Shown: piece by piece, positions 1-62,853 of the stretch | Numbering within the stretch: the first letter of the stretch is position 1 | Layout of the letters: the number at the start of each line of letters is the position of its first letter | Source of the DNA: Naegleria gruberi | Lineage: Eukaryota | DNA: 64,000 nucleotides | Direction: 5' to 3' (one strand) | NCBI GenBank assembly: GCA_000004985.1 | Contig: GG738927.1 | Translations under genes and position numbers: made by a program | The notes under the pieces: generated by a model | Seen by the model: only the letters and a program-made list of their open reading frames with translations | Told to the model about the DNA's origin: nothing | Database searches by the model: none

Positions 1-199
1 GAGGGCGAAATGAATGGTATTCGTACTGGAGAATTCTCTTCCTCCTCATCAAACACTCTCCCCAGTACACATTTCACTTCTTCCAATTCTGTTGTGTTGA
101 TAATATGATGAATGAATCTTTGGATAATCAAAATCCAAATAATATGAAACGATTGAATTGACAGAATTTCTGATATGTGAATCAGAAATAACTTCAAAT

Positions 200-1177
200 T
201 CAGGTCTCATTTTGAAATGAATTTCCCAAATTGACTGTAACTCCTTTCTGTAATTTCTTAATTAGAATATCTGGTTTGGTGAAGAGTACTATTTTTCTTG
301 TGTCCATTAATTCTGGAATACTGTTCATAAATTTAAACATCCTTTTGGTATCTTGAATTCTCAAAGTTTGCGAATCATCTTCAGCTAGATATTGATCTAT
401 CTCTGAAAGTGAGATCACCAAAAAGATTGTTTCTGGCATGGAAGCCAAAGACTGCATCCATGTTCTTCTTTCAGTTCTAGCCCCTCCCACATCCCTGAAA
501 TAGCCATACCTGAATTCAAATTGTTTGCTTGAATTTGTACATTCATAACACCACGTCAAAGGAAGAAAGCTTTCGTTTGGATTTTCAATATTTTCCAAGA
601 ATTCTGGTAAATTTTCCAGCATTTGAAGGTTCAGTCTTGAATGTAAATTGATGCTATTTTTGTGTTCATTGCAATATTGTGAAATATTTAAACTTATTTC
701 ATTCCATCTAATTTCGTATAATTCTCGCATATTTGGAATTTTCCAAACATGGATTAATAATTCACAAAAATCAAAATTAGAAACTTGTGGAAAGGAATCG
801 AATAAATCCCAATCTTTTATCCTGATAATTTCCTCAATTTTATCCAAAGTCGATTCAAATCTCTCTAAAATCAACCCTTTCATTTGCTTTCTTTCACTTT
901 CTTCCAAAATACTCCACAATTTTCCCATCATTGAACAACAAGCATACTGCAAATCATGCTCAAACTCTATTTTACTCGAATAAAACCATTCCTTCCTCAA
1001 AATATGTTTTGCCAAATAATACAATGTTGATTTTCCACTATTGGCTGTTCCAAAAAGTGAGCAGCCCTCACCTATTTTTCTCCTAATGGGTTGTTGTTGA
1101 TTGGTTGCATCCGAAGGCAGTTGTTGCTGCTGATGATGATGATTATTTGGTATCGGATGTGATTGTTGTGCTCCCAT
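200..1177 (-). CDS. G-protein alpha subunit-like protein (divergent, switch II reads DVGGAR). The C-terminus is probably incomplete or continues in an exon beyond the window start
   Basis: N-terminal MGAQQS myristoylation motif; P-loop GEGCSLFGTANSGKST; DVGGAR in place of DVGGQR; TKPD in place of NKxD. ATG at 1175-1177 with A-rich upstream; the track start at 1204 lies 9 codons upstream. The ORF stops about 20 aa after TKPD, whereas Gα normally has about 80 aa more. Confidence 0.6.
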   Translation of the reverse strand: MGAQQSHPIPNNHHHQQQQLPSDATNQQQPIRRKIGEGCSLFGTANSGKSTLYYLAKHILRKEWFYSSKIEFEHDLQYACCSMMGKLWSILEESERKQMKGLILERFESTLDKIEEIIRIKDWDLFDSFPQVSNFDFCELLIHVWKIPNMRELYEIRWNEISLNISQYCNEHKNSINLHSRLNLQMLENLPEFLENIENPNESFLPLTWCYECTNSSKQFEFRYGYFRDVGGARTERRTWMQSLASMPETIFLVISLSEIDQYLAEDDSQTLRIQDTKRMFKFMNSIPELMDTRKIVLFTKPDILIKKLQKGVTVNLGNSFQNET

Positions 1178-1380
1178 TTTTTTCTCTAAGGAAAAGTTCA
1201 CCATCTTTTCTTTTCAATTTTTTGTAATTTTTGATATAGTTTACAATAAATAGCAGCTCATATATTAGCAATTATTGAGATCATTTTTGAACATTGTTGC
1301 ATACTGGACGGAAACATAGAACAAATCGTTTCTTTTCCAATTCCAGTTCAGAAAAAATTGTCACAACCATAACCACCACC

Positions 1381-1827
1381 ATGACACTCCACGCACGATC
1401 TTATACCCCAAGTGGTGGTGTTGCTACTTCCTCTTTTGTGATTGCCATTATTATTATTGCCACCATGTTCTTATTAATTCACTCTTCCAATGCCTTGAAG
1501 TGTTATAGTGGCAGTTTCACTGGTAGTATCACTCCGATTACTTTGCAGAATAATCTGACTCAGGTTTCAATTAGTGCCTCTGGTAATGTGTGTTATAGTT
1601 ATAAGGTGGCCATGAATGGAGTCTTGAATGTGTTCGGAGAGATGAGCAGCAGTGAATGCTCTGCTACCAAGAGTAAAGGTTCTCCCTATTTTGATGTTGC
1701 ATGTTGTGCTGTGAGTGATTTGTGTAATACTGGAGCTACTAGTGGTGTTGTTGCTGTTCCGACAATGTCTTCTTCATTGATGATGTTTGTTGGTTTGATT
1801 GTTTGGTGTTGTTGCTTAACGTTTTAA
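1381..1827 (+). CDS. Small secreted Cys-rich Ly6/uPAR (three-finger/LU)-like protein with an N-terminal signal/TM segment and a hydrophobic GPI-anchor-like C-terminal tail
   Basis: Hydrophobic segment SFVIAIIIIATMFLLIHSSNA. Cys pattern CYSG...CYSY...EC...DVACCAVSDLCN, matching the C-terminal CCxxxDLCN of LU domains. Ends in hydrophobic MMFVGLIVWCCCLTF. Start taken at Met30 of the track ORF (1294). Confidence 0.4.
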   Translation: MTLHARSYTPSGGVATSSFVIAIIIIATMFLLIHSSNALKCYSGSFTGSITPITLQNNLTQVSISASGNVCYSYKVAMNGVLNVFGEMSSSECSATKSKGSPYFDVACCAVSDLCNTGATSGVVAVPTMSSSLMMFVGLIVWCCCLTF

Positions 1828-1944: not shown

Positions 1945-4167
1945 TTAATAATTGTCTTCTTCATCGACGTGAACACCAGTCAAGTGAGAGTGATTGGAAT
2001 CTCCAGCAATGTGCCAACTGTTTGGATTTGACTTTCCGATTGGAGCAGAACCACCCAATTGACCCTTATGAGCATTGTGTTCCTTCAAAAATACATCATG
2101 GAAATTCTTCCAGAAATCTAATGAGGCAAATGTGTTAATTAGTGACTCGTTAGATGTAGCTCCAGTTGAGGCAACCTTATTTTGGATCAGTTCAACCATA
2201 TCTAACAAGTATCCCATACCAACAGTTCCTTTCCATGATTGACTATCAGCGGATTTAATAGTCTTACACTTTTCAACGATACGTTTACATAATTGAATAT
2301 CTTGCACCAATAATTTGGTCTTTAAATCAACAACAGATCCCTCGGAAATTGATAAACCACAAACAGCTGCAACCAAATTGTAAAGTTGCTTGTGTAAAAG
2401 TGAGTTGAAATCAAACTTGAAGGAAAGGTCTACAATAATTGCAGTGGAGGAGGTTTCCTTCAATGATGCAATAATTGAAGAAATAACCTTTTGAACAGAT
2501 TGTTCCTTTTCATTCTTTGAATATTGGAGGTTGACCAAACTCTTTTGGAGACTTATTAATTGTGAGTGAATGGTAACAATATAGTCAATAGTAATCAAAC
2601 GAACTTCACCAAGGGTTTCCTTCAATTCAACACCACATTGAAGAACTTGTATAACTTGTTGTTTTGGAGCTACATTGAGAATGGCAGTCAACTTTTCAAG
2701 AAGAGATGATGAAGTCAATGACTTTAAAGCTTCAACACCAAGTTCGATAACTTTGATATCAGTTGCAGATAATGTGGCATAGTCAAGAGTAGTAAGCATG
2801 GAAATGGCAGAAATGGCAGAAACAATTTGAGTCAAGAGATTCTTCATAAATTCAATTCCCAAAATGAAAAGTGATCTTTGAACCTCATTGGTTTGGTCAC
2901 ACTTTAAAATAATATCCCAAAGTCTTTCAATATTGGTTGTTGATAAAATAGATTGAATAGCTGGCAAAGTATAGCTTGGTCTCTTTGTGAGTGATTTTTC
3001 AATCAATTGAGTCAAGAGAGAAAAGATATTCTTTTGTTCATCTTCAATTTCAATGTTCAAATCTTCATCGAAAACTTGTGTAGTATAACTTTCAAGCTTG
3101 TTGAGCAATCTATCAAGCATAGCATATTTAGAGAATGTCCATTCTTGAACTGCCTTGTATGTTTTCATTTCTTCACTATTTTCCTCTTCACTTTCATTAC
3201 CAAATGATGAATTTGAATTGACAGAGAAGGAGTAAGAGTCAGAGAATGAAGAGAACCCGCTCAACAATTGAATGAGTTGAGTTTGAGTTTGGAAAATCAT
3301 AGATTCCATTCCAATAAACTTCAAGAAGAAGGTATCAAAGTCACACAAACCAATATTTCTAATAAATAAGTTTTCAAAGAGAGCCTCGGAAGTTGCAGTA
3401 AGCGATTCATCAACAGTCAAACTAACTGGAAGAGCCTTTTCATCAATAATTTCACACATTCTTTTCACAACATCAATATAATACTTGTCTGGTTTTTCCA
3501 AAATGACCAACATGGCCTTGATCCAGTATGTTGAAAGACTTCTATTCTTTGGGATAAAGTATGGCTTTCTTGTGAGAAGATACTTGATGAGAAGCAAATC
3601 CAAAAATCGTTCTCCATAAACTTGATAATTTTCATCTTCACTCTTGCTAATAAGAGCACTATTAATACCATCAATAAAACAACCGAAAATTTCAGCAACA
3701 ACATATGGATGTTGGAAGATAGCCTTGAGTTCTGGTCTATTTTCCAATTCTTCTAATTTATCTTTCATTGGAAGATTTGCCAAATATTCTTGCTTCATCT
3801 TTTCTTCTTCTTGTTTGGCTTGTTTTCTAATGGAATCCGATGAAGTATTTTCTGTTGTAGCTGATGATTGATCATCCCATGAACCAAAATCGTCATCAAA
3901 AAAGTTTGAAGCTGTTTTTGGTTGATTCTTCTTATTCAAAATATCATCTTCAAAGTACTCCTCCACAGAAATATAATCAATTAATTTACGTAAATTCTTG
4001 GAATTGGTGAGGAAGGAAATCAACTTTGGATTCAAGGATTTGACTTCTTGAAGCAAGGTTTCTTGATCTAAAATTTCTTCCAAGGTTGTTGATGGATTAT
4101 CGAGAATGGTATCCAACGATTCAAAAACTTCGTCATCCGAGAACAAATCCCAAACACTTTGAGCCAT
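1945..4167 (-). CDS. SAPS-domain protein (SIT4/PP6 phosphatase-associated regulatory subunit-like)
   Basis: 740-aa ORF. N-terminus (WDLFSDDEV...LDTILDNPSTTLEEILDQETLLQEVKSLNPKLISFLTNSKNLRKLIDYI) matches the conserved SAPS N-terminal block. ATG with A-rich upstream. Confidence 0.55.
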   Translation of the reverse strand: MAQSVWDLFSDDEVFESLDTILDNPSTTLEEILDQETLLQEVKSLNPKLISFLTNSKNLRKLIDYISVEEYFEDDILNKKNQPKTASNFFDDDFGSWDDQSSATTENTSSDSIRKQAKQEEEKMKQEYLANLPMKDKLEELENRPELKAIFQHPYVVAEIFGCFIDGINSALISKSEDENYQVYGERFLDLLLIKYLLTRKPYFIPKNRSLSTYWIKAMLVILEKPDKYYIDVVKRMCEIIDEKALPVSLTVDESLTATSEALFENLFIRNIGLCDFDTFFLKFIGMESMIFQTQTQLIQLLSGFSSFSDSYSFSVNSNSSFGNESEEENSEEMKTYKAVQEWTFSKYAMLDRLLNKLESYTTQVFDEDLNIEIEDEQKNIFSLLTQLIEKSLTKRPSYTLPAIQSILSTTNIERLWDIILKCDQTNEVQRSLFILGIEFMKNLLTQIVSAISAISMLTTLDYATLSATDIKVIELGVEALKSLTSSSLLEKLTAILNVAPKQQVIQVLQCGVELKETLGEVRLITIDYIVTIHSQLISLQKSLVNLQYSKNEKEQSVQKVISSIIASLKETSSTAIIVDLSFKFDFNSLLHKQLYNLVAAVCGLSISEGSVVDLKTKLLVQDIQLCKRIVEKCKTIKSADSQSWKGTVGMGYLLDMVELIQNKVASTGATSNESLINTFASLDFWKNFHDVFLKEHNAHKGQLGGSAPIGKSNPNSWHIAGDSNHSHLTGVHVDEEDNY

Positions 4168-9773: not shown

Positions 9774-12700
9774 CTAACTTGACAAATAACGAGCCTCCTT
9801 CCTCTTCCTCCTCTCTTCTTCACTTGTTTCTACACATGTTGTAATACCATTTACTCTATCAGTAATGAAATTTGTATACTTATTTTCTGTATAATATTCT
9901 GAAGTTTTTCTATATTTGTTCAGTCCTTGCAAAGTGCAATCAGGTTCAAATTCTTGCTTCATTTTAGCATTATCATCACTTAGTCCAGTAGAAATTCTTT
10001 GTTTGTCCTTGTTTGGAGTTAAATCAAAGAGTTTTGTTTGCCTTAATCGTTTTTTACCGTTCTTTGATTGAGTTGATGAGGTAGTGCTTTGGGTGTCCTC
10101 TTGATTGTGAATAGATTGTAGAATGGAATCACTATGTGAAATGAAACTCTCTTGATGATTTTCGAGTGGATGAATCTCTGAAGGCAGTTGTGATGGAGAG
10201 GAGGCACCTGCTCCCAATTCTGGTAAATCAGTATCTATTTTATGTTGTACACCATTAACTTCTTCATGCTTGGAATTATTTACGAGATTTAGTAATTTAT
10301 CAGGAATGCAGAATATCAATTTTTCCACATTAATCAACAAGCCAGATAAAGCATCCTTCCTTTCATTTGGTTCTGCTTTGTTAATTTTCCTCTTCCATGA
10401 TGCAAGTTTCTTCTCAAACCTCTCCTTTCCGAAACTTGATAATTGGGCTACTGATTTAAATCCTTCTTCCGAAAGTCCAGAAATTATTTCCTGTAATTTA
10501 GTTATTAAAGCATTCACTTGATCGATGAAAGATGTACTCATCACAGAGTCTTTTAATTGTGATAGGTTTGTAAAAATCTCCTGAATCTTTACTATTACAT
10601 CATCACGATTATATTGGTCACCAATGGCTTGCACAAATTTTGCAATCAAATCGCCATGTTCTCGAAAATTATTATACAAATAACTCAGGACGATTGTATT
10701 TGCTTCCGATCGTATTTGTGGCAAGACTTCATCATCGGTAATCATTTCATCAGTTATGTTTGATTGTTCCATTTTTTTTGTCTTGGTTTGCTGCTTCGAG
10801 AGAATTACCAGGTTGGATGCTGGCTTTGCATCGTTTTCTGTCGAATAGGTCTTGTGCCAATTTACGTGAGAGAGTTGATATTTCTTCATTCTCGTGTCTA
10901 ATGTATTTCAAAAGAAGACCACTATTCTCTTCAGATTCGGTTGCCAGGGTTGCGAATGAATCAGCCAATACAATCAAACAACTCATAATGAGTGGAGCAC
11001 CATCACTGGTAAAGACTTTAAGACAACTGATTACGAGTGGATAAAATTCTGAAGCCAGTGTTTTGGAAACGATCATAATCTTACCAATTGCAGCTACAGC
11101 ATGACTTTTCAATGATTTTGGTGCCTTTCTTGATTGCATACAGTTCCTTAGTAGATTGACATATCTAGAAAGAAATCCCTTGGTTAAGCTTTCAGTAACA
11201 GCCCTTTCTAAAACAAGTCCTTTGGCTTGTTCTCTTTGATTTTCCTTCATGCAGTTTTCCTCCTCACCTTCAAAATCATCCTCCTCTGATATCAGCTTGT
11301 CACTATTCTCGTTGAATTTCCTAGTAGCAATAGACCTAATTTCCAAACTATCCCTATAACAAATCTCTCCAACTAAATCAAAGAATGCACTCATCTTTTC
11401 GAGATCAGTTTCTTGTTTTTCAGTAAAATCCTTCCAAACTGAGCTCTCCACTTTTCCAATTCCATAGTAGGCCAATCTTCTATTACTCTCTGTAGAGTAT
11501 ACCAAGGAAAGGGTCTCACGACCAAATTCTAGTAGTAGGAACGCAATGTTTTCTTCCAAAAAGTTGTCCACAGACTTTTTGAAGGGTTGATTATTGCTTA
11601 TTCTATATACCTCCTCTATAATTCTTATTTTCAATGAGATTAGCTTTCGATTACCTTCAATGTTGGAAATCAAATCTTTAAGGTTTTGAAGAATGTTTTC
11701 AAAAGGAATGAATACCAAAAAACTAGAGTCTAACTTGAGCAACAACAACATGGTGAATATTGCTGTTGTTAAATCTAGCTTCTCCCTACAATACTCAACC
11801 AGAGATCTCAAACTCAAGTTAGGGAAGTAAGTCTTGATTCCACTGAATAAAATCAGCCATGGATCGATTAATTCAGTATTTCTTTTACAGGTTACATTGA
11901 TGAAAAAGCACTATAACTTACGTGATTGATTGCAACAATAAACCGAACTTGAACTTGGATTGAGGATCTACAAAATAGGAAACAAACAGATTGCATATTC
12001 TCTGCTTAACAGATGAGTGTGTATCCTTTCCAATACAGGATACAAGTTCTGACCAGTCAATCTTCAAACCTTGAATGGTCAGTTTGTCAAACAAGTTGAA
12101 CACTGATAGTATGGATTCTTTGCAAAATAGAGGGCCTTCAAGTGATAAAGCTCTCAAAGTGTTGAGCAATTTGGGAATGAATTTGTAGTAGACTTTTTCG
12201 AGAAATTCTACGTGCATTCTCTTACAAGAAATGTCATCATCCAAGTCATTTGATTCATGTTGGAACAGAATACACTCACTTTTTGTGGATGAAAATCTCA
12301 CTTTAACATGCGAACTTTGTTGTAATCTTCTACTAAGGCTTTCGAATGTTTCATCAATGAATGGTACCATATTCTTTGGTTGTTGTTCCAAAAATAACAT
12401 GGTGTTATCATATAAGGATTGACCTAATTTCTCAATCACATTATTCTTGTATAATTGATATAAATCCAACAATTCGACGCTTTTTTCAAAGTTGTCTCTA
12501 CACAATAATAAATCAAAAGCTCTGGTGTAGGGATTTCTTTGTATTAGACCAAATGAAGCATTAATACTCTGTACTCTTGTTGTCTTTGACTTGTCAGAGA
12601 TGTGGTCAAGGCAATTATTCTAATTACCTTAATAATCATATTTGAAATGTAACTTACCAAGAATTTGTTAAACTCAACAGCATAATTATTCCAATCAACC

Positions 12701-34086: not shown

Positions 34087-37000
34087 ATGTATTCAAACAA
34101 CAACAAGTGTCATTGTGGTTTAATTGCCAAGCAAGGAACGACCTCGAAGGGAGAAAATCAGGGTAGAAAGTACACCTCCTGTTCTAAAAGTATGACTGAT
34201 AAGAGTCGATGCAAATTCTTCAAGTGGTTAGATTCATCAGAACAAACAGCAACAACCAACATATCATCTTCTTCATCATCCTTCAAAAGCAATAGCAAAT
34301 TACAGCACAGTGAGCAGGCTTTTGATGATACTTTGAACAAGACGATACAATTGATGAATAGAGTGCTTCCTTCTTCCTTGTTATCATCAACAAGTGGTTC
34401 TTCTTCTTCATCATCAAATAACAAGTCTCCTTCCAACAACACTAATAGCCAGTGCTCATCTCTCACACTCTCACAATTGTGCTCCAGTATGGAAGACTTG
34501 AATATTGACAAAGATCTTTCAAAGCCTTCTTCTTCTCAAGCTATTGATAGAGACTTCATATTGAATGATAGTCTTTTTCCTTCTTCTTCTTCAGAAGCAA
34601 GCAAGAATAGTCTTCCTCTGATTGGAAACAATCAGCATAAAGGAGGAACATCATCTTCATCGTTACCAAATTCTCTCCTTGAAGAATGTATGCAAAAGGA
34701 ATTAAATAGCAAACAATTGGAGGCTGTCTGTGCTAGCGAACATGATTGTGTATGTGTTTATAGTGGACCGGGATCTGGTAAGACAAAGGTAAGTTGTTGT
34801 TATTATTGGATGGTAGAGGGAATTAATAATTAATTATTTGATGAATATTCATCTTGTGATGATGTGATGAATTTTTTTTTAATTTTTATTTAATTTTTTT
34901 AAAAAATTCATAACGGTCATGGATCCAAATTTTAGACCATCACCAACAGGATTGCCTACTTGTGTATTGTTAAAGGAATTGAACCAAGGAATGTATTTGC
35001 CATGACTTTTACTAACAAGGCTGCTCAGGAGATGAAAACAAGACTTGTTCACCTTGTGAAATTGTACGATTTTCAAAAGAGAATTAATGCAAAGGATTTC
35101 AGTCATATTGGAACGTTTCATGCAGTTTGTGCTAATATTTTGAGAAATGAGATGCATCATTTGACTCGTATTGTTGGATTGGATCAGAAATTTATGATAT
35201 TTGATTCGGAAGAGCAGCTGTCATAATTAGGAGCTTGTACAAGTCATCAACTAATCATTCCATTAGAAGNNNNNNNNNNNNNNNNNNNNNNNNNNNNNNN
35301 NNNNNNNNNNNNNNNNNNNCTTTTAAAAAATTCGTAACGGTCATTGTAAACTTTGGGTGGATCCAAATTTTAGACCATCACCTACAGGATTGCCTACTTG
35401 TGTATTGTTAAAGGAATTGAACCAAGGAATGTATTTGCCATGACTTTTACTAACAAGGCTGCTCAGGAGATGAAAACAAGACTTGTTCACCTTGTGAAAT
35501 TGTACGATTTTCAAATTAATGCAAAGGATTTCAAGACTTGTTCACCTTGTGAAATTGTACGATTTTCAAATTAATGCAAAGGATTTCAGTCATATTGGAA
35601 CGTTTCATGCAGTTTGTGCTAATATTTTGAGAAATGAGATGCATCATTTGACTCGTCTTGTTGGATTGGATCAGAAATTTATGATATTTGATTCGGAAGA
35701 GCAGCTGTCAATAATTAGGAGCTTGTACAAGTCATCAACTAATCATTTCATTAGAAGTTTACTTCCATTGAGTTTGTCTTTGGAGGATATGGAGAAGAAA
35801 CTCTCTCCAACTCTAGTTTTACAAACGATATCACGATGTAAGAATCAACAGGTTTCAGCTGATGAATATTCGAAAGCATTCCATCAAGAAATTGAGGAAA
35901 CGGTCATTGCTGAACTATTTGTAGAATATCAACAGTATTTATCGAAACACAATGGGGTGGATTTTGATGATTTATTGCTTCATGTTGTGTACTTGTTTGA
36001 AAAATTCCCTCTAGTGAGAGAAAAGTATGCCAATCAATGTGAAGTATTATTGGTCGATGAATTTCAAGATATCAACAAGTTACAATACAAGATTGCCATG
36101 CATTTGAACTCAAAGAGGAAGAACATCTTCTTGGTTGGTGATTCCGATCAAAACATTTACACTTTCAGATTCAGTGATAGCTCAATAATGCGGGAAGTTA
36201 TCAAAAAGTATGAGAAGGAGGGAAAGAGCATGAAAGTCATCATGATGAATGAAAACTATCGATCCACAAGAAGTATTGTCCAATTTTCAGACAAAATAAT
36301 AGCTAGCAATTCTAACAGATTAAGAACTATCAGCTCTACCACTTCAAACACCACGGGTTTACCAGTTTCGATAGTCAGTTGCTCTGATGAAGCCGAGTTC
36401 ATTACAAATGAAATTGTAAAACTCACAAACATGAATAACAACATTCAATATTGCGACTTTGCAATCCTTATCAGAGTCAACTCTGCTTCTCGAGTATTCG
36501 AAGACATTTTTGATAGGAAAAAGTTGCCTTACAGAATTTTGAATTCCACAAGATTTTACGACTCTATGGAAGTGAAAGATATTCTTTCCTATGCAAAAGC
36601 TATTGCAAATCCAGATAATGATCACTTCCTGTTGAGCTGTGTGAATGTTCCAAGAAGATGCATCACTGAGGAGACAAAGTCCAAGTTGATAAAGCTTGCA
36701 GCTCAGAATAAGATGTCTCTGAGGTCAATTATCAAGAATCATAACAAGGAAATTGCTGGACATCTAGGAGCCAATGAGTTACAAACACTCATTTCCACAA
36801 TAGATTTTATCGAAAAGTCTCAAATTAATCTTCATTCTCCTTCAACTATTATGCAAGATATTATTCGGGTGATTGATTATGAATCCTACTTGAAATTCAC
36901 ACAGAAGAATATGTTCGAAACAAGATGGGAGAATTTGAAAGAGTTAATTAACATGTGTCAAGAATTTGAGTCCAAATCAACCATTCCCTCAATTTCATCA

Positions 37001-49245: not shown

Positions 49246-52200
49246 TTATTTGTTTTGTTTCACTAAACTATCGAAATCAATTGTCTTCTTCAATTTCTTT
49301 GAAGCGTTTTCAACTATTCTATTATTCTTATTCATTCGTTTGAGGAATTCAGTATTGTATCTCAATGAATAATGTGCAAAACGAAGTGATTCAATATTGA
49401 TATCCATTGCTTGAGCAATAAAATCTTCATCACTAATAATTTCGTAAGAGGCTACCTCAAGAGCTGTAACATCGTGCTGTATAGCTCTCAGAACAATATC
49501 TCTATCATTTCTCATTTCAAACAATGCATAACAGAGGGCAGAATAACTTGTTTCATGACTAACCGCGTGCATTACAATTTCCTTATCGTTTAGGAATTCA
49601 GGTACTGCAAATTGAAGTGTGTCTTGATGGTTTTGGGCACATTTTAGAACAACATTTCTGTTATGTATAAACTTAAGAGGTACATATTGCAAAACCTTTC
49701 CATTGACAGAAGCACACTCCAAAACAAATTCTTCATCGTTTTGCAGTTCTTCACTGGCATAAAGGAATGCAACAGCATCGCTTTTGATGGCTTTTAGCAT
49801 AATTTCTCTATTATTTTTAAATTCATTCTTTAACTCTGCAGACAAGTGCATAATTGAATCACCACTTAGCTCTAGTGATCTCAAAGCTATTTCTCTGTCT
49901 TCTCTTAACCTAATTGGTACGTTAAGTATATCGTAAGTTTTTGGTTCAATCTCCAAAATAAAGTTCCTATCCATTTTCAGTCTATTGGAAACATACAAAA
50001 GATTATTCATATTTACATTTACAGCCATAAGGGCAAACTGTCTATCATTTTTAAAAGAATAGTCTAAATCATTTAGTGATCTAAGTCTTAATGCAATCAT
50101 TGCTGCTTCCTTATTAAGATTCACTGGTTTCTTTAAAAATTCTGCAGGCAACCATTTTCTCAATGCTTCTAATACTTCTTCATCATTTTTCATTTCTTCA
50201 GAGATATGTTGATAACACTCTGCTGATATTTTTAAAGCTGTAAGGATGACTTCCTTATCGTTCTTCAATTCTTCAGATGCATACTGTAAGGTACTTGCAT
50301 CTTGACTGACAGCATTTAAAATAAGCTCTCTATCATTTGCAAGTGATTCTGGAACGTAATGAATTACATAACCATAAATCTTTGCCATCTTTCTCATAAA
50401 ATCTACATTACTCTTTAATCGATCTGAAACACATTCAAAAAAATAATGTCCGTACCCTGTCTCTGTATAAGATATTGCTGCTTCAACTATTTCCTCATCA
50501 TCTCTATATTGTTCTGGAACATTCTTTAGATTATTTCGATCGTATCTACATGATTCATAAACAATCTCTCTATCTAATTCTATTTCATTGTAATCACTCA
50601 ATCTGAACCCATTTCTTAGTGCAATTATTAATAATTCTCTATCATTTAGGAGAGAGCGACTTGCATATTTAAATTCACTTCCATAAAGTTGAATAGCTGT
50701 TAAAACTATTTCTCTATCTTGTTTGAATTCCTGTGGCAAAGTTTCGATGCTTCCTGTTCTTTTAGCATGTTCCAATATTAAATCTCTATCTTCTTTCAAA
50801 TTATATCCAAAGTATTGAGAAATAGTATTAAATGAATTTCTAATTGCTCTTAAAACAAATTCTCTGTCTCTTCTCACAGATTCAGGAGCATATTCTAAGA
50901 AGGTACTGTCTTTAATTATTGTACACTCTAATATTTCTGTATCCATTCTCAATTCCTTAGACGCAAAGGTAAAATTTGTTGAGTCAAATAAAATTGCCTC
51001 TAATACCAGTTCTCTGTCGTTCTTCAGCTCATCAGAAGCATATTCTAGAGCCCCATAATGTTGCTTTACAGCTAATCTGATCAATTCTCTATCATTTCTA
51101 AACTCTTCATTTAAATTCTCTAAAACTTTACGCTCGGATAGTATACAGTCTAAAATTAATTGTCTATCAGTTTTTAACTCGTCGTGAGATATATTTTCGA
51201 AACACGCTGGATCAATGTTGACGATTCTTTTTTGTCGTGATGCATTAAGTGCTTTGAAATCCTCTTTGGAATACCACATGGCATTGCTGTATTTACATTG
51301 AATATCCAATAACTCGTCAATAAAATCATTATCATTGGCTAGAGATGAATTAACGTAATCAAGAAAAGTGAAAAAATTATTTGCTCCAGAAATACAGTTC
51401 AAAATGAATTCTCTATCTTCTTTCAGATCTGTCAGTGAGGAGAGCGAGTGAGCATCTTTCGAAACAGCAAGAGTCGCTATTTCCCTATCCTTCCAGAAAA
51501 TAGGATCTGCATATTGTAAAGCCCTTCCAGATTTAACAGCATCATAAACTATTTCTCTATCCTTTTTAAATTGTGGTGAAACATCTCTCAAACTATCTCC
51601 TTTCTTCTTTACAATTTCCAAAACAAAATCTCTATCTGATCGCAAGCTTTCGGCTGCGTATAAGAAATAAAAACCTGGAGAGTTAGCAGCACTCAATACT
51701 ATTTCCTTATCAGCAGTAAATTCTTTTGGTGCAAATCTAAGAGTACACGTATATCTAGAACTTTTGGTGGATAATAGAACTATTTCTCGATCTTTTAAAT
51801 TGTCTGGAACATATTCTAGAACTGAACCGTCTTTCTTGATTGCTTTCAAAATAACATCTCTATTATTTTTCAAATTGGCTGAAACATATTGTAAACATTT
51901 TGGTTGTTGTTCAACAGCCAACCTCGCAATTTCGTCATCATCGTGAAAATGTGGTAAATGTTCGAACAGAGTTGAATCCACAAACATTTTTGGTTTACAT
52001 TTTAGTGCCTTCAACACAAAATTCTTGTCAGTCTTCAACCTTTGACTTGCAAATTCAATTGCAGAAACGTTCTCTTTGATAGCTGCCAGTACAACCAGTT
52101 CATCATTCTTCAAATCATCCGATGCATGTTCCAAAACACGACCATCAGCACGAACAATTTTAAGAAGTGCTAATTTACAATCATTGTCTGGTAACGGATT

Positions 52201-52413
52201 TTCTTCAATGTACTCCACAGCAGATTGATTTTTTCTCTTAAAGAATGCTGTTAAATGATCATAAACCTTTTTGTTTTTCGCAATTCTTTCCTCGTAAACT
52301 GATGCAAAGTGTTGAGAAAGCAATCGGTCCGATGATGATCCGCCATAAATTTCGGGATGGTCATCTTGATGATGAAAATTTATAAAAAGATCGCCAAAGA
52401 CAACTTTCGACAT
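49246..52413 (-). CDS. Giant protein (1055 aa) made of tandem DUF4116-like repeats
   Basis: Roughly 30 reiterations of an approximately 36-aa unit (L-K-x-D-R-E/D-I/F-V-L-x-A-h-x...L-x-Y-A-S-x-E-L) in a single exon. ATG at 52413 after an A-run. Confidence 0.6.
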   Translation of the reverse strand: MSKVVFGDLFINFHHQDDHPEIYGGSSSDRLLSQHFASVYEERIAKNKKVYDHLTAFFKRKNQSAVEYIEENPLPDNDCKLALLKIVRADGRVLEHASDDLKNDELVVLAAIKENVSAIEFASQRLKTDKNFVLKALKCKPKMFVDSTLFEHLPHFHDDDEIARLAVEQQPKCLQYVSANLKNNRDVILKAIKKDGSVLEYVPDNLKDREIVLLSTKSSRYTCTLRFAPKEFTADKEIVLSAANSPGFYFLYAAESLRSDRDFVLEIVKKKGDSLRDVSPQFKKDREIVYDAVKSGRALQYADPIFWKDREIATLAVSKDAHSLSSLTDLKEDREFILNCISGANNFFTFLDYVNSSLANDNDFIDELLDIQCKYSNAMWYSKEDFKALNASRQKRIVNIDPACFENISHDELKTDRQLILDCILSERKVLENLNEEFRNDRELIRLAVKQHYGALEYASDELKNDRELVLEAILFDSTNFTFASKELRMDTEILECTIIKDSTFLEYAPESVRRDREFVLRAIRNSFNTISQYFGYNLKEDRDLILEHAKRTGSIETLPQEFKQDREIVLTAIQLYGSEFKYASRSLLNDRELLIIALRNGFRLSDYNEIELDREIVYESCRYDRNNLKNVPEQYRDDEEIVEAAISYTETGYGHYFFECVSDRLKSNVDFMRKMAKIYGYVIHYVPESLANDRELILNAVSQDASTLQYASEELKNDKEVILTALKISAECYQHISEEMKNDEEVLEALRKWLPAEFLKKPVNLNKEAAMIALRLRSLNDLDYSFKNDRQFALMAVNVNMNNLLYVSNRLKMDRNFILEIEPKTYDILNVPIRLREDREIALRSLELSGDSIMHLSAELKNEFKNNREIMLKAIKSDAVAFLYASEELQNDEEFVLECASVNGKVLQYVPLKFIHNRNVVLKCAQNHQDTLQFAVPEFLNDKEIVMHAVSHETSYSALCYALFEMRNDRDIVLRAIQHDVTALEVASYEIISDEDFIAQAMDINIESLRFAHYSLRYNTEFLKRMNKNNRIVENASKKLKKTIDFDSLVKQNK

Positions 52414-52486: not shown

Positions 52487-53637
52487 TCAATCTGAACATG
52501 TGGTTAGTATGATGTCTGATAGTACTGATGGTTGCCTACAGAGTGTTTTGTAAAGATATGTTATTAATCTTGTGGTGAACAATGATTTGGAAATGTAAAC
52601 ATGTTCATTGGTTGACTGTGTGGATGATCTCAATAGTGATTCATAACATTCGAGGTCAGATAGCGTATTGATGAAATGATATTCAAATTTTTCGCCTTCT
52701 CTTATATATTCAAACACATTTTGATATCTGTCAATAATGGAATTCAATGCAATTCGTTCACTACTCTTTAAGTTTTCAATTTGTCTCAATTCCACTCTAT
52801 CACTATTGGATTCCAACTCTGAGGTGTTTGAATTAGCTAGTTTTGCAAGAAACAGATCTGCCATTGTAAAAATTACAACGACTCTCAAATCTTTTGTAAA
52901 TTTGTTTGTTAAAATCTCTTTAAATAACTCAATTGATTCGTGCATTTCATTAAAACCCTCATCAAAGCAGTCTTTGGTCCAAATCTTGCTGTTTGAGCCA
53001 ACTCTGAAAACCTCCTCCATCTATTCTCTGTGACTGAAGACAGCCGATTCTTTACATCAACCAAATTATATACTTCACCAGTTGGGTTGATCTTTAAATC
53101 TGAAATTCGCTCTCTTTTTTGGGACATATATTTCAGTAGATCAGTAGAAATTCTTCCTCTATCAAGTAATGAGAAAAACTTGTCATAATTTGCAAAATTC
53201 GTCCAGTTATTGTGACTATTACTAAATATTCTTTCCTTTGCAAATTCTCTAACTTGCACAGTACTCTTCCACAACTCCACAAATAATAAGTAATTATCCG
53301 AAAATCCTTTCAATATATTAAACCATGTTACGTTGGGAGTAGGAGAGCCGAGTACTTTTTTCACATTTTGAATTTCCAAACTATCATCCGAACTAATTCT
53401 AAACACTTCCTCTCTCACCTGATCATTCATTTCATTCAATAAACTTGCAAATGCATCAATGCAACGATTTGTTATTAGAATTTCCAACTTTTCCGATTTG
53501 TAAATATCTTGTTGTGTGTAACTTGCAAGTGAGCGTATGAAGACTGTTTTGCCACTTCCTTCAAATCCCAACAGAAGAATAGTAGGCAGGGGAGGTGATG
53601 TAGGTTTGTTAACAACTTTTGATTTCTTTCCTCCCAT
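52487..53637 (-). CDS. Divergent G-protein alpha-like protein (switch II reads RVGSNS instead of DVGGQR); two exons
   Basis: MGGKKSK myristoylation-like N-terminus. P-loop LLLGFEGSGKT. After a 35-nt intron (53021-53055, GTAAAG..ATAG), ...TGEVYNLVD joins MEEVFRVGSNSKIWTKDCFDEGFNEMHESIELFKEILTNKFTKDLRVVVIFTMADLF. This aligns to Gα TGIVE...[23 protein letters not shown]...NRMHESMKLF...NKKDLF. Confidence 0.55.
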
Positions 53638-55136: not shown

Positions 55137-55862
55137 ATGTCCACAACAACAACTACTCTAGGAACAATATCCACTATCAATTCGAATATAACCTTGATGC
55201 AAACATGTATTCGAATGGATCCGTCTGGTTTCACATATGTGCCTTGGATTTGGGACATCTTTGGTGAGTGTGTTCACGATATTCGTGAGCAATCTTCCTT
55301 CGCTATTGGTATGATTTCGTTAGGTTTCTGGATTATGGCCCTGCTGCCACAAGTCATTGCCAATTTCAAGAACAGAGATGCCAGCTCGCTGTCAACTGGT
55401 TATCTCATCCAAATTACATTAGGAGATGCAGCAAGTATGACTGCAGGTATCATGAGTGGTCAATTAATTACTCAGATTTTGTTGAGTGCCTATTTTGTGT
55501 TGATGGATGTAGTCATGATTGTTCAATATATAATTTTCGTGATAATTCCAAAGATTTATAGGAAAATTGTAAAGAAAGAGGAACGTGGGGATGATTTGAA
55601 AGGCAAGGAAATGAAGGAAGTTGTGAATAATGAGAAAGTGGTAAAGAAGGAAGAAAATACAAAGCATGAGATTGTGAAGAGCTCAGTGATGATTTCGTTA
55701 TTGTCTGTTTTGGTGATGGTTGCATTCTTTGCTTCAATTGTTGGCTTTTCACGAGCTAGTTCAGAAAGTTATGCGACTACACTTTCGAATAATAGAATTT
55801 CTAGGAAACTTTTACATGCTGTTCCAGAGGGAAAGGAATATCCACAGAAGAAGCTATCACAA
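55137..55862 (+). CDS. PQ-loop repeat (cystinosin/PQLC2-like) membrane transporter, 3'-partial (runs into a 1267-N gap)
   Basis: PQ-loop motif FWIMALLPQVIANFKNRDASSLSTGY; multiple TM helices. ATG at 55137. Confidence 0.5.
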
Positions 55863-57129
55863 NNNNNNNNNNNNNNNNNNNNNNNNNNNNNNNNNNNNNN
55901 NNNNNNNNNNNNNNNNNNNNNNNNNNNNNNNNNNNNNNNNNNNNNNNNNNNNNNNNNNNNNNNNNNNNNNNNNNNNNNNNNNNNNNNNNNNNNNNNNNNN
56001 NNNNNNNNNNNNNNNNNNNNNNNNNNNNNNNNNNNNNNNNNNNNNNNNNNNNNNNNNNNNNNNNNNNNNNNNNNNNNNNNNNNNNNNNNNNNNNNNNNNN
56101 NNNNNNNNNNNNNNNNNNNNNNNNNNNNNNNNNNNNNNNNNNNNNNNNNNNNNNNNNNNNNNNNNNNNNNNNNNNNNNNNNNNNNNNNNNNNNNNNNNNN
56201 NNNNNNNNNNNNNNNNNNNNNNNNNNNNNNNNNNNNNNNNNNNNNNNNNNNNNNNNNNNNNNNNNNNNNNNNNNNNNNNNNNNNNNNNNNNNNNNNNNNN
56301 NNNNNNNNNNNNNNNNNNNNNNNNNNNNNNNNNNNNNNNNNNNNNNNNNNNNNNNNNNNNNNNNNNNNNNNNNNNNNNNNNNNNNNNNNNNNNNNNNNNN
56401 NNNNNNNNNNNNNNNNNNNNNNNNNNNNNNNNNNNNNNNNNNNNNNNNNNNNNNNNNNNNNNNNNNNNNNNNNNNNNNNNNNNNNNNNNNNNNNNNNNNN
56501 NNNNNNNNNNNNNNNNNNNNNNNNNNNNNNNNNNNNNNNNNNNNNNNNNNNNNNNNNNNNNNNNNNNNNNNNNNNNNNNNNNNNNNNNNNNNNNNNNNNN
56601 NNNNNNNNNNNNNNNNNNNNNNNNNNNNNNNNNNNNNNNNNNNNNNNNNNNNNNNNNNNNNNNNNNNNNNNNNNNNNNNNNNNNNNNNNNNNNNNNNNNN
56701 NNNNNNNNNNNNNNNNNNNNNNNNNNNNNNNNNNNNNNNNNNNNNNNNNNNNNNNNNNNNNNNNNNNNNNNNNNNNNNNNNNNNNNNNNNNNNNNNNNNN
56801 NNNNNNNNNNNNNNNNNNNNNNNNNNNNNNNNNNNNNNNNNNNNNNNNNNNNNNNNNNNNNNNNNNNNNNNNNNNNNNNNNNNNNNNNNNNNNNNNNNNN
56901 NNNNNNNNNNNNNNNNNNNNNNNNNNNNNNNNNNNNNNNNNNNNNNNNNNNNNNNNNNNNNNNNNNNNNNNNNNNNNNNNNNNNNNNNNNNNNNNNNNNN
57001 NNNNNNNNNNNNNNNNNNNNNNNNNNNNNNNNNNNNNNNNNNNNNNNNNNNNNNNNNNNNNNNNNNNNNNNNNNNNNNNNNNNNNNNNNNNNNNNNNNNN
57101 NNNNNNNNNNNNNNNNNNNNNNNNNNNNN
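55863..57129. other. Assembly gap (1267 N)
   Basis: Run of N. Confidence 1.
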
Positions 57130-59072: not shown

Positions 59073-60138
59073 TTGGAAACGAATCATACAATTGATGAAT
59101 ATATTCCTCATCAGAGTGTCTCCTCGGAACCTCTTTGGTTGAGAGAATTACAAACCTTGGAACCTGTAAAAATTCAAATTGAACATTTTGTTGATGTTCA
59201 TCATTTGCGAATTGTTGTTATTTCGGATACTCATGGATTTCATCGTTACTTGAAATTTCCTCCTTGTCCCGAGGGGAAGAAGATGATTTTAATTCATTGT
59301 GGTGATATGACAGAGCATGGAACTATGGATGAGTTGAGGAAATTTAATGAATGGTTGGGACACATTCGAGTTAATTTCTCTCAGATTTTTGTATTGCTGT
59401 AGGTTAAATTAATTATTAGGTATTTATTCTAATAATATATTATTGATCCGATTTATTTTAAATAATTTATTGATCGGAATAATAGGAATCATGAAACTGA
59501 ATTTTCAAAATTTACTAAGCAAGGTTTGTTTGAAATCTATTGNNNNNNNNNNNNNNNNNNNNNNNNNNNNNNNNNNNNNNNNNNNNNNNNNNNNNNNNNN
59601 NNNNNNNNNNNNNNNNNNNNNNNNNNNNNNNNNNNNNNNNNNNNNNNNNNNNNNNNNNNNNNNNNNNNNNNNNNNNNNNNNNNNNNNNNNNNNNNNNNNN
59701 NNNNNNNNNNNNNNNNNNNNNNNNNNNNNNNNNNNNNNNNNNNNNNNNNNNNNNNNNNNNNNNNNNNNNNNNNNNNNNNNNNNNNNNNNNNNNNNNNNNN
59801 NNNNNNNNNNNNNNNNNNNNNNNNNNNNNNNNNNNNNNNNNNNNNNNNNNNNNNNNNNNNNNNNNNNNNNNNNNNNNNNNNNNNNNNNNNNNNNNNNNNN
59901 NNNNNNNNNNNNNNNNNNNNAATTATTGGATTTACACAAGCTCAAAATTCATCTCTTTGGACACATTCACTCAAAAAATGGTTATGAATTTTTGAGAAGA
60001 TCATACGTGTTGGAAGCTGCTAAAAAAGAAAAAGATGATAGCACGAAACAGTTGAAAACTGAACAAAGTAATGATGATATTCTATTTATTAATGCAGCAA
60101 ATTCACACAAATTCCAGCCATTCTACTTTGATTTGTAA
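59073..60138 (+). CDS. Calcineurin-like metallophosphoesterase (MPP superfamily); split by an intron and a 378-N gap
   Basis: Motifs VISDTHG (GDxHG), IHCGDMTEHG (GDxxDRG-like) and, after the gap, HLFGHIH (GH/GHxH). The exon boundary near 59391 is unresolved. Confidence 0.5.
59543..59920. other. Assembly gap (378 N)
   Basis: Run of N. Confidence 1.
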
Positions 60139-62803: not shown

Positions 62804-62853
62804 NNNNNNNNNNNNNNNNNNNNNNNNNNNNNNNNNNNNNNNNNNNNNNNNNN
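62804..62853. other. Scaffold gap (50 N) directly after the (GGGTTT)n array
   Basis: Run of exactly 50 N. Confidence 1.

What the first reader, a model, noticed from the sequence alone, without database searches (positions are those of the whole stretch)
200..1204. Gα-like gene with the catalytic Gln replaced (DVGGAR) and no switch-I RxxT, truncated or continued beyond the window edge
The P-loop and the NKxD-like TKPD are present, but switch II reads DVGGARTERRTW (Gln→Ala) and the switch-I Arg/Thr context is not recognisable. The ORF also stops about 20 aa after TKPD. A candidate C-terminal exon (…INTTELEEVKCVLGRVFDEEEE…) runs off the 5' edge of the window. Loss of the catalytic Gln predicts a GTPase-deficient (constitutively GTP-bound) or non-canonical Gα.
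Basis: partly seen in the sequence, partly recalled or inferred. Interest (0 to 1): 0.5.

Follow-up and report, generated by a model that had tools for sequence, protein, structure and literature searches.

The report
Frame-broken, GTPase-dead Gα-like gene in Naegleria
This is an already annotated but uncharacterised Naegleria gruberi gene for a divergent G-protein alpha-like protein that has lost the residues needed to hydrolyse GTP, and whose tail is not a separate exon but is cut off by two one-base frame shifts, so it is either a very young pseudogene or a mis-sequenced member of an amoeba-specific family of 'dead' G-alpha proteins.

Summary
ORF 200..1204 (-) is Naegleria gruberi NAEGRDRAFT_75669 (XP_002669428.1, 325 aa from MGAQQS). 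It matches Pfam G-alpha (E 2e-27) but only profile positions 8-276 of 333. Aligned to human Gαi1, it keeps the P-loop (GTANSGKST), Thr181 and DVGG. Arg178 is Tyr, Gln204 is Ala, NKxD is TKPD and TCAT is INTT.

The "C-terminal exon" reading is wrong. The missing α4-β6-α5 region lies colinear with the ORF, with no intron. It is read in two other frames after single extra bases near nt 220 and nt 108. Frame correction gives a full G-alpha match (profile 8-331) and a Gα-like AlphaFold model.

The gene belongs to a well-supported clade (NJ bootstrap 97-98%) from Naegleria and environmental assemblies. The clade shares N-terminal MGxxxS, [ST]KPD, H[IV]VNT and a C-terminal FISPC…LxDIxI extension. Gln204 survives in 1 of 14 members. 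Two intact sister paralogues have also lost the P-loop Lys and the DxxG Asp.

Best reading: a GTPase-dead Gα-like paralogue, recently disabled (about 0.5). The main rival is that the shifts are assembly errors and the protein is intact (about 0.4). No independent sequence was available to decide. Interest is modest.

The parts
200..1204 (-). Mechanical ORF (334 aa). The annotated CDS NAEGRDRAFT_75669 / XP_002669428.1 is 200..1177 (325 aa). It encodes the Gα-like N-terminus, helical domain and Ras-like domain up to just after G4.
   Evidence: 100% identity to P0001; Pfam G-alpha E 2e-27, profile positions 8-276/333.
1160..1177 (-). MGAQQS, the annotated start with the N-myristoylation consensus (Gly2, Ser6). 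An in-frame ATG lies 9 codons upstream at 1202..1204.
   Evidence: Full-length clade members mostly start MGxxxS/K. That this motif signals myristoylation is established knowledge, not tested here.
1025..1051 (-). G1 / P-loop GTANSGKST. The Lys46 and Ser47 equivalents are kept.
527..547 (-). Switch I equivalent YECTNSS: Arg178 to Tyr, Thr181 kept, Gly183 to Ser.
   Evidence: two independent MAFFT alignments agree.
458..493 (-). G3 / switch II DVGGARTERRTW. The Ala codon GCT at 479..481 occupies the Gln204 position.
269..280 (-). G4 TKPD in place of NKxD. Lys and Asp are kept; Asn is Thr.
   Evidence: TKPD is the clade signature.
217..220 (-). Frame-shift site 1: one extra base in ...GGA AAT TCA T TTC AAA ATG..., moving reading frame -1 to -2. 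Its exact position within a few bases is not determinable.
200..202 (-). Premature TGA stop in the original frame, 5 codons after the shift.
109..216 (-). Frame -2 segment FKMRPEFEVISDSHIRNSVNSIVSYYLDFDYPKIHS (αG-α4 region). It is 58-61% identical to the paralogues.
108..108 (-). Frame-shift site 2: one base where the paralogues have a Phe codon, in ...CAT TCA T CAT ATT..., moving frame -2 to -3.
3..107 (-). Frame -3 segment HIINTTELEEVKCVLGRVFDEEEENSPVRIPFISP. It covers β6 with the G5 equivalent INTT, α5, and the start of the clade-specific FISP extension. It runs off the window edge.
   Evidence: β6 at residues 354-359 and α5 at 364-376 in the model.
52487..53637 (-). A second, more degenerate member of the same clade. 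It is split into two ORFs: 52909..53637 (annotated as a 242-aa protein) and 52487..53020.

Best explanation
The locus is NAEGRDRAFT_75669 of Naegleria gruberi. It is a fast-evolving paralogue in a Naegleria/heterolobosean-specific clade of N-myristoylatable Gα-like proteins.

The clade is marked by [ST]KPD instead of NKxD, H[IV]VNT instead of TCAT, and a roughly 45-residue C-terminal extension (FISPC...LxDIxI) after helix α5.

Shown: the fold-defining parts and most nucleotide-contacting residues are present in this gene (P-loop Lys/Ser, Thr181, DxxG, and the Lys and Asp of G4). Both residues that catalyse GTP hydrolysis are replaced (Arg178 to Tyr, Gln204 to Ala).

Inferred: if made whole, the protein could at most bind guanine nucleotide. 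It would hydrolyse it very slowly or not at all, and would act as a membrane-anchored, state-locked or nucleotide-independent adaptor, as plant XLG 'decoy' Gα proteins do.

Shown: in this assembly the 3' end carries two separate +1 frame shifts 112 nt apart. Translation therefore stops at TGA 200..202, and the product lacks α4, β6 (G5), α5 and the clade-specific tail.

Inferred, and what I commit to: the shifts are real, and this copy is a very recently disabled gene, either a young unprocessed pseudogene or a null allele. It would be part of birth-and-death turnover in this expanded family.
For: Identity and family.

Catalytic substitutions.

Colinear three-frame homology to the intact paralogue: (41%, 55% and 51% identity; joint E 7e-67). 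Frame correction raises the Pfam score from 96.6 to 113.6 bits and extends coverage to profile positions 8-331/333. The corrected protein models as a Gα (pLDDT 74.5, pTM 0.74). Its top PDB matches are all Gα, with probability 1.00.

Clade: found by HMMER over 1.84 billion representatives, with sources. It is monophyletic in 194-197 of 200 NJ bootstraps. Gln204 is kept in only 1 of 14 clade members, against nearly all canonical NKxD hits.

Intact sisters P0002 and P0156 (80% identical to each other) have also lost Lys46 and Asp200. Loss of GTPase chemistry is therefore tolerated under selection in this lineage.

For the shifts being real:
- 36.8 kb of the same window lies in uninterrupted ORFs of at least 250 aa, so indel errors are not general.
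- A second clade member 52 kb away is also frame-broken. Its lesion removes about 10 residues, which a single-base sequencing error cannot produce.
- The public annotation ends both models at the same premature stops.
Against: The segments after the shifts show no decay. They contain no stops in at least 72 ancestral-frame codons of a 33%-GC genome. They are more similar to the paralogues (58-63%) than the upstream part is (44%).

Two independent neutral indels would normally come with several substitutions. 'Indels only' within 112 nt is also the classic look of a low-quality patch in a draft Sanger assembly, and the window contains four N gaps.

No second assembly, read set or transcript of this locus exists in the searched collections. 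The shifts are therefore unverified. No biochemical property was tested.
Confidence: 0.5

Rival explanations
1. The two frame shifts are sequencing or assembly errors. The real gene then encodes an intact Gα-like protein of about 430 aa. It would be myristoylated and able to bind guanine nucleotide, but it lacks the Arg and Gln needed for hydrolysis. It would be a naturally GTPase-deficient, constitutively 'on' or nucleotide-independent signalling adaptor.
For: There is no decay after the shifts, and conservation there is higher than upstream. Both ancestral frames are open to the window edge. The frame-corrected protein gives a full-length Pfam match and a confident Gα-like model. The close paralogues P0002 and P0156 are intact at 406-407 aa. 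The assembly is a draft with gaps.
Against: Two errors within 112 nt contrast with tens of kb of intact ORFs in the same window. A second member of the family in the window carries a lesion that is not a single-base error. No independent sequence supports a corrected frame.
Confidence: 0.4
2. One reading: the ORF is an upstream exon, and ...INTTELEEVKCVLGRVF... is a separate C-terminal exon joined by splicing across an intron.
For: The two pieces are in different frames with a stop between them. N. gruberi genes can contain introns (own knowledge, not tested here).
Against: The roughly 110 nt between them encode, in the third frame, 36 residues that are 58-61% identical to the paralogues' coding sequence. 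The TKPD-to-INTT spacing (about 57 codons) equals that of intact Gα, which leaves no room for an intron. Splicing that stretch out would delete αG-α4. The JGI/NCBI model has no such intron.
Confidence: 0.03
3. Programmed +1 ribosomal frameshifting at two sites, both following a TCA codon with a T next, produces the full-length protein from the sequence as assembled.
For: Both shifts go in the same direction, and both sites can be written as ...A TTC A|T... / TCA-T.
Against: The junction positions are only defined to within a few bases, so the shared motif is weak. No stop or rare codon follows in the zero frame. The paralogues have no shift at these sites. The other broken clade gene in the window shifts in the other direction, with a deletion.
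Confidence: 0.02

Closest known systems
Canonical heterotrimeric G-protein α subunits (e.g. human Gαi1; Pfam PF00503)
   Same: Ras-like domain with an inserted all-helical domain. Also shared: the N-terminal MGxxxS lipidation motif, P-loop GxxxxGKS, Mg-Thr of switch I, DVGG, the ERRxW switch-II core, and the Lys and Asp of G4. The predicted fold matches Gαq/11/t/i/s/13 structures.
   Different: Arg178 is Tyr, Gln204 is Ala, Gly183 is Ser, NKxD is TKPD and TCAT is INTT. The receptor-coupling C-terminal tail is replaced, in the paralogues, by a roughly 45-aa FISPC...LxDIxI extension. The ORF is frame-broken.
Plant extra-large G proteins (XLG2), described as 'decoy' Gα (bioRxiv 10.1101/795088)
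   Same: A Gα-homologous domain that lacks residues needed for nucleotide binding or hydrolysis. XLG2 is reported to keep nucleotide-independent interactions with RGS and Gβγ. This is the best functional analogy for the Naegleria clade.
   Different: XLGs carry a long N-terminal extension and are plant-specific. The Naegleria clade has a short myristoylatable N-terminus and a C-terminal extension, and it groups separately from all other Gα retrieved here, which suggests an independent origin. Partner binding is untested here.
Naegleria fowleri Gα1-13 (Bosch et al. 2022, PMC9283941) and the N. gruberi lineage-specific Gα diversification noted by de Mendoza et al. 2014 (PMC3971589)
   Same: Same genus and same expanded gene family.
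   Different: The N. fowleri proteins characterised there cycle nucleotide and respond to RGS GAPs. Neither paper, as far as I could read them, describes a TKPD/VNT clade or loss of the catalytic Gln and Arg.
GTPase-deficient Gα mutants at the same two positions (Gln204/205/209/227 to Leu; Arg178/179/183/201 to Cys/His) and naturally hydrolysis-deficient small GTPases such as Rnd/RhoE (own knowledge)
   Same: They have substitutions at the same catalytic positions. The established consequence is very slow GTP hydrolysis and a persistently GTP-bound state.
   Different: Those proteins keep intact G4 and G5 motifs and proven nucleotide binding. Here G4 and G5 are altered, the sister genes have lost the P-loop Lys, and binding is untested.

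Membership tests
Gα subunit (Pfam PF00503 G-alpha) | Sequence-profile match above the curated threshold across the Ras-like and helical domains | tested here: met
   The ORF alone scores 96.6 bits against a 48.8-bit cut-off, covering profile positions 8-276/333. The frame-corrected protein scores 113.6 bits over 8-331/333.
Gα subunit (Pfam PF00503 G-alpha) | Gα fold (a GTPase core with an α-helical insert between G1 and G2) | tested here: met
   AlphaFold model of the frame-corrected sequence: pLDDT 74.5, pTM 0.74. The top 50 Foldseek PDB hits are all Gα, with probability 1.00 and TM 0.5-0.66. This is a prediction, not a solved structure.
Catalytically competent Gα | G1 P-loop GxxxxGK[ST] | tested here: met
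   GTANSGKST.
Catalytically competent Gα | Switch-I arginine finger (Arg178 of Gαi1) in RxxTxGI | tested here: not met
   The sequence is YECTNSS. Tyr sits at the Arg position, Thr181 is kept and Gly183 is Ser, in two alignments.
Catalytically competent Gα | Switch-II catalytic Gln in DxxGQ | tested here: not met
   The motif reads DVGGA, with Ala at the Gln204 position.
Catalytically competent Gα | G4 NKxD and G5 TCA[TV] guanine-recognition motifs | tested here: not met
   They read TKPD and INTT. Lys and Asp of G4 are kept. TKxD occurs in active Rac-type GTPases (own knowledge), so binding is not excluded.
Catalytically competent Gα | Measured GTP binding and hydrolysis; Gβγ, RGS and receptor coupling | not testable with these tools
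   Biochemistry is required.
Heterolobosean TKPD Gα-like clade (defined here) | [ST]KPD, H[IV]VNT and the FISP(C) extension, plus grouping with the clade in a tree | tested here: met
   The gene has TKPD, HIINTT and PFISP. The clade is monophyletic in 194-197/200 bootstraps, and the gene is sister to P0002 in 185-200/200. The terminal LxDIxI motif lies beyond the window edge and was not seen.
Unprocessed pseudogene | Frame disruption relative to intact paralogues | tested here: met
   Two +1 shifts and a premature TGA.
Unprocessed pseudogene | Lesions confirmed in independent sequence; relaxed constraint downstream; no full-length product | tested here: inconclusive
   No independent sequence was found. 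The downstream segments show no decay. Expression is not testable here.

The most novel reading that the evidence does not exclude
Naegleria and related heteroloboseans carry a distinct, selectively maintained clade of membrane-anchored Gα-like pseudoGTPases. Members share TKPD, VNT and a FISPC...LxDIxI tail. The catalytic Gln is kept in 1 of 14, and some have also lost the P-loop Lys and the DxxG Asp. They would signal or scaffold without a GTPase cycle, which would be a second origin of 'decoy' Gα proteins, independent of plant XLGs. On this reading the window gene is a functional, nucleotide-binding but hydrolysis-dead member whose apparent frame shifts are assembly errors.
Probability: 0.3. 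Interest if true: 0.5.

Novelty: new variant of a known kind. Interest (0 to 1): 0.3.

Why it matters
If the clade is functional, it would be a second, independent case (after plant XLGs) in which a heterotrimeric G-protein α subunit gave up its GTPase switch while being retained. This occurs in an organism with a very large RGS and cyclase repertoire. That would bear on how G-protein signalling works without a nucleotide cycle, and it could be tested with recombinant protein.

For genome annotation, two N. gruberi 'predicted proteins' (325 aa and 242 aa) are truncated models of frame-broken genes. They should be flagged as pseudogenes or re-sequenced.

If this gene is simply a young pseudogene in a birth-and-death family, the finding is ordinary.

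Tried and rejected
1. Intron or C-terminal exon model. Rejected because the intervening DNA is homologous coding sequence in the third frame and the spacing equals that of intact Gα.

2. Fetching the DNA beyond the window edge, or any independent copy of the locus. The look-up of encoding contigs found nothing for P0001, the 334-aa ORF, P0002 or P0156. The 90% cluster of P0001 has one member on one contig. The shifts therefore could not be verified, and the last roughly 40 codons were not seen.

3. The idea that the conserved C-terminal 'LxDIxI' is the first strand of a BTB domain encoded by a missed downstream exon (a Gα-BTB fusion like RhoBTB). Rejected for three reasons. The second clade gene in the window ends at a true stop 73 nt before the next gene's ATG. 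P0081 is a single complete ORF on two metagenome contigs, with an unrelated gene downstream. Pfam finds nothing in the tail.

4. Grouping the TK[VAYI]D proteins from Willaertia magna, Norrisiella and environmental sources (P0009, P0040, P0051, P0143) with the core clade. Not supported (4-15/200 bootstraps).

5. A first NJ run timed out, and a second was invalid because of saturated Kimura distances. It was repeated with capped distances and with p-distances.

6. Estimating the assembly's indel rate from other possibly split ORFs. The Pfam results were uninformative.

7. Anantharaman et al. 2011 (Gene 475:63; PMC3396428) may already describe inactive Naegleria Gα. It is not held in the library, so prior description cannot be excluded.

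Full report
**What is there**

The window is Naegleria gruberi DNA (33% GC). The minus-strand ORF 200..1204 is 100% identical to the NCBI 'predicted protein' XP_002669428.1 / NAEGRDRAFT_75669 / UniProt D2W2Q1. That protein is 325 aa, starts at MGAQQS (nt 1177) and lies on a 174,313-bp scaffold.

It matches Pfam G-alpha (PF00503) with E 2.1e-27, at 96.6 bits against a 48.8-bit cut-off. The match covers only profile positions 8-276 of 333. phmmer against PDB sequences finds only Gα chains.

**Catalytic residues**

Two MAFFT alignments with human Gαi1 were used, one with 4 sequences and one with 122. The HMMER alignments to Gαq structures give the same result.

| Gαi1 feature | Window gene |
|---|---|
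| P-loop (Lys46, Ser47) | GTANSGKST, both kept |
| Arg178 | Tyr |
| Thr181 | Thr, kept |
| Gly183 | Ser |
| Asp200-x-x-Gly203 | DVGG, kept |
| Gln204 | Ala (GCT, nt 479..481) |
| NKxD | TKPD |
| TCAT | INTT |

The ORF is continuous through the helical domain and switch II. No alternative exon is needed or visible.

**The 3' end is not an exon problem**

The closest relative is an intact N. gruberi paralogue, P0002 (NAEGRDRAFT_73162, 406 aa, 42% identical). tblastn of P0002 against the window gives three abutting, colinear HSPs (joint E 7e-67):

| Frame | Window nt | Identity |
|---|---|---|
| -1 | 1057..221 | 41% |
| -2 | 219..109 | 55% |
| -3 | 107..3 | 51% |

The distance from TKPD to INTT is about 57 codons, the same as NKxD to TCAT in Gαi1. 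There is therefore no intron.

The gene is colinear with its paralogue but contains one extra base near nt 220 (...AAT TCA T TTC AAA ATG...). A second extra base lies at about nt 108, where the paralogues have a Phe codon (...CAT TCA T CAT ATT...). After the first shift the original frame hits TGA at 200..202.

Joining the three pieces gives a 391-aa protein, still incomplete at the window edge. Its Pfam match rises to 113.6 bits and spans profile positions 8-331/333. AlphaFold models it as a Gα, including β6 and α5 (pLDDT 74.5, pTM 0.74). All top Foldseek PDB hits are Gα subunits (probability 1.00).

**Family context**

A profile of the gene plus P0002 was searched with HMMER against 1.84 billion representative proteins. 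It found 4,682 Gα-like hits. The best ones share a distinctive signature:
- an N-terminal MGxxxS/K;
- [ST]KPD in place of NKxD;
- YH[IV]VNT in place of TCAT;
- after α5, an extension of about 45 residues, [FY]ISPC[LI]...L[TS]D[IV]x[IL].

Named members come from N. gruberi and N. lovaniensis. Among those retrieved, N. gruberi contributes six further proteins (P0002, P0005, P0010, P0094, P0156 and the second window gene, P0155) and N. lovaniensis contributes P0038. The rest are unnamed ENA, JGI or Logan environmental assemblies.

In a neighbour-joining tree of 112 full-length hits, the ten full-length core members form a clade in 194-197 of 200 bootstraps. The window gene is sister to P0002 in 185-200 of 200. 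Proteins with TKVD, TKAD, TKID or TKYD from Willaertia, Norrisiella and environmental sources do not reliably join the clade.

Within the core clade the Gln204 position reads A, S, S, Q, R, K, K, S, Y, T, D, K, V, S. Gln is kept in 1 of 14, whereas almost all canonical NKxD hits keep it. Arg178 is likewise mostly lost.

The two sisters of the window gene, P0002 and P0156, are intact and 80% identical to each other. They have additionally lost the P-loop Lys (GTADSGTST) and the DxxG Asp (NVGG, NAGG). Loss of GTPase chemistry, and in some members probably of nucleotide binding, is thus a tolerated, apparently selected state in this lineage. It is not a peculiarity of one gene.

**Pseudogene or sequencing error?**

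This could not be settled. No other assembly, read-derived contig or transcript of the locus exists in the collections searched.

Evidence for real lesions:
- 36.8 kb of the same window is in uninterrupted ORFs of at least 250 aa, so indel errors are not frequent.
- A second clade member in the window (52487..53637, annotated only as a 242-aa protein, P0155) is also frame-broken. It lacks about 10 residues between the switch-II Trp and β4, which a single-base error cannot produce. It has far more degenerate motifs: DVKN for DVGG and TMAD for NKxD.

Evidence for an artefact or a very recent event:
- The post-shift segments contain no ancestral-frame stops over at least 72 codons in an AT-rich genome.
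- They are more similar to the paralogues (58-63%) than the upstream part is (44%).
- Two shifts lie within 112 nt.
- The assembly is a draft with four N gaps in this window.

I weight 'real, very recent inactivation' at about 0.5 and 'assembly error, gene intact' at about 0.4.

**How it most likely works**

Shown: Gα architecture; nucleotide-contact residues present; catalytic Arg and Gln absent; clade-wide loss of these residues; a truncating frame shift in the assembly.

From established knowledge of Gα and Ras-superfamily enzymology: replacing either Gln204 or Arg178 reduces GTP hydrolysis by orders of magnitude. Gly2/Ser6 is the N-myristoylation consensus. TKxD is compatible with guanine binding in Rac-type GTPases.

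Inferred: an intact version would be a membrane-anchored Gα-like protein that is either locked GTP-bound or, like its sisters, works independently of nucleotide as an adaptor for partners such as Gβγ or RGS proteins. This is analogous to Arabidopsis XLG2, which is described as a decoy Gα with much reduced nucleotide binding but retained RGS and Gβγ interactions (bioRxiv 10.1101/795088). The product as annotated (325 aa) lacks one core β-strand, two helices and the G5 loop. It is unlikely to be a stable GTP-binding domain.

**Comparison with the literature**

De Mendoza et al. 2014 (PMC3971589) note a lineage-specific diversification of Gα in N. gruberi. Bosch et al. 2022 (PMC9283941) list 13 N. 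fowleri Gα and characterise six that cycle nucleotide.

Neither paper, as far as I could read them, describes this TKPD clade or its loss of catalytic residues. Anantharaman et al. 2011, the paper most likely to have done so, was not available.

I therefore rate the clade as a new variant of a known kind (atypical, GTPase-dead Gα-like proteins). The specific gene is a possibly dead member of it.

**Verdict**

Interest is modest (0.3). A degenerate or pseudogenised paralogue in a known lineage-specific expansion is not very surprising, but the clade as a whole is a testable, possibly independent instance of decoy Gα evolution.

Noticed in passing
window 52487..53637 (-): A second Gα-like gene of the same TKPD clade. 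It shows MGGKKS, P-loop GFEGSGKT, DVKN in place of DVGG, TMAD in place of NKxD, HFINT, YISKSL and LSDIIL. It is split into two overlapping ORFs by a frame change just after '...TENRW', and about 10 residues are missing there. It is annotated publicly only as a 242-aa protein (P0155). It is probably a pseudogene or a still more degenerate pseudoGTPase.
   Followed up: partly
window 1178..1204 (-): An in-frame ATG lies 9 codons upstream of the annotated MGAQQS start (MVNFSLEKK-MGAQQS). If it were used, the N-terminal Gly needed for myristoylation would be lost, so the transcription start probably lies between the two ATGs.
   Followed up: no
window 49246..52413 (-): A 1055-aa protein made of 24 DUF4116 repeats (Pfam E 8e-187). 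It starts only 73 nt downstream of the stop of the second Gα-like gene.
   Followed up: partly
window 1945..4167 (-): A 740-aa ORF with a weak SAPS (SIT4/PP6 phosphatase-associated protein) domain match: 26.4 bits against a 25.6-bit cut-off.
   Followed up: no
window 1294..1827 (+); likely start at the ATG near 1381: A small Cys-rich ORF with a hydrophobic N-terminal stretch and a hydrophobic C-terminus (…ALKCYSG…CCAVSDLCN…LIVWCCCLTF) and no Pfam match. It looks like a secreted or GPI-anchored surface protein.
   Followed up: no
window 35270..35319, 55863..57129, 59543..59920, 62804..62853: Runs of N (assembly gaps) show that this is draft-quality sequence. One gap interrupts the ORF starting at 55137.
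   Followed up: no
P0002, P0156 (N. gruberi paralogues; not in the window): The two intact sister genes (80% identical to each other) have lost the P-loop Lys (GTADSGTST) and the DxxG Asp (NVGG / NAGG), as well as the catalytic Gln. They look like conserved pseudoGTPases that cannot bind nucleotide.
   Followed up: partly
clade C-termini (alignment A4); L001 587..1684: A conserved, unannotated extension of about 45 aa after helix α5 ([FY]ISPC[LI] … L[TS]D[IV]x[IL] followed by a stop) replaces the receptor-coupling tail of canonical Gα. It has no Pfam match and its function is unknown.
   Followed up: partly
window 9774..10889 (-) and 10750..11751 (-): Two long same-strand ORFs (371 and 333 aa) overlap by about 140 nt. 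Neither has a Pfam match. They could be another split gene, or a gene with an intron.
   Followed up: partly
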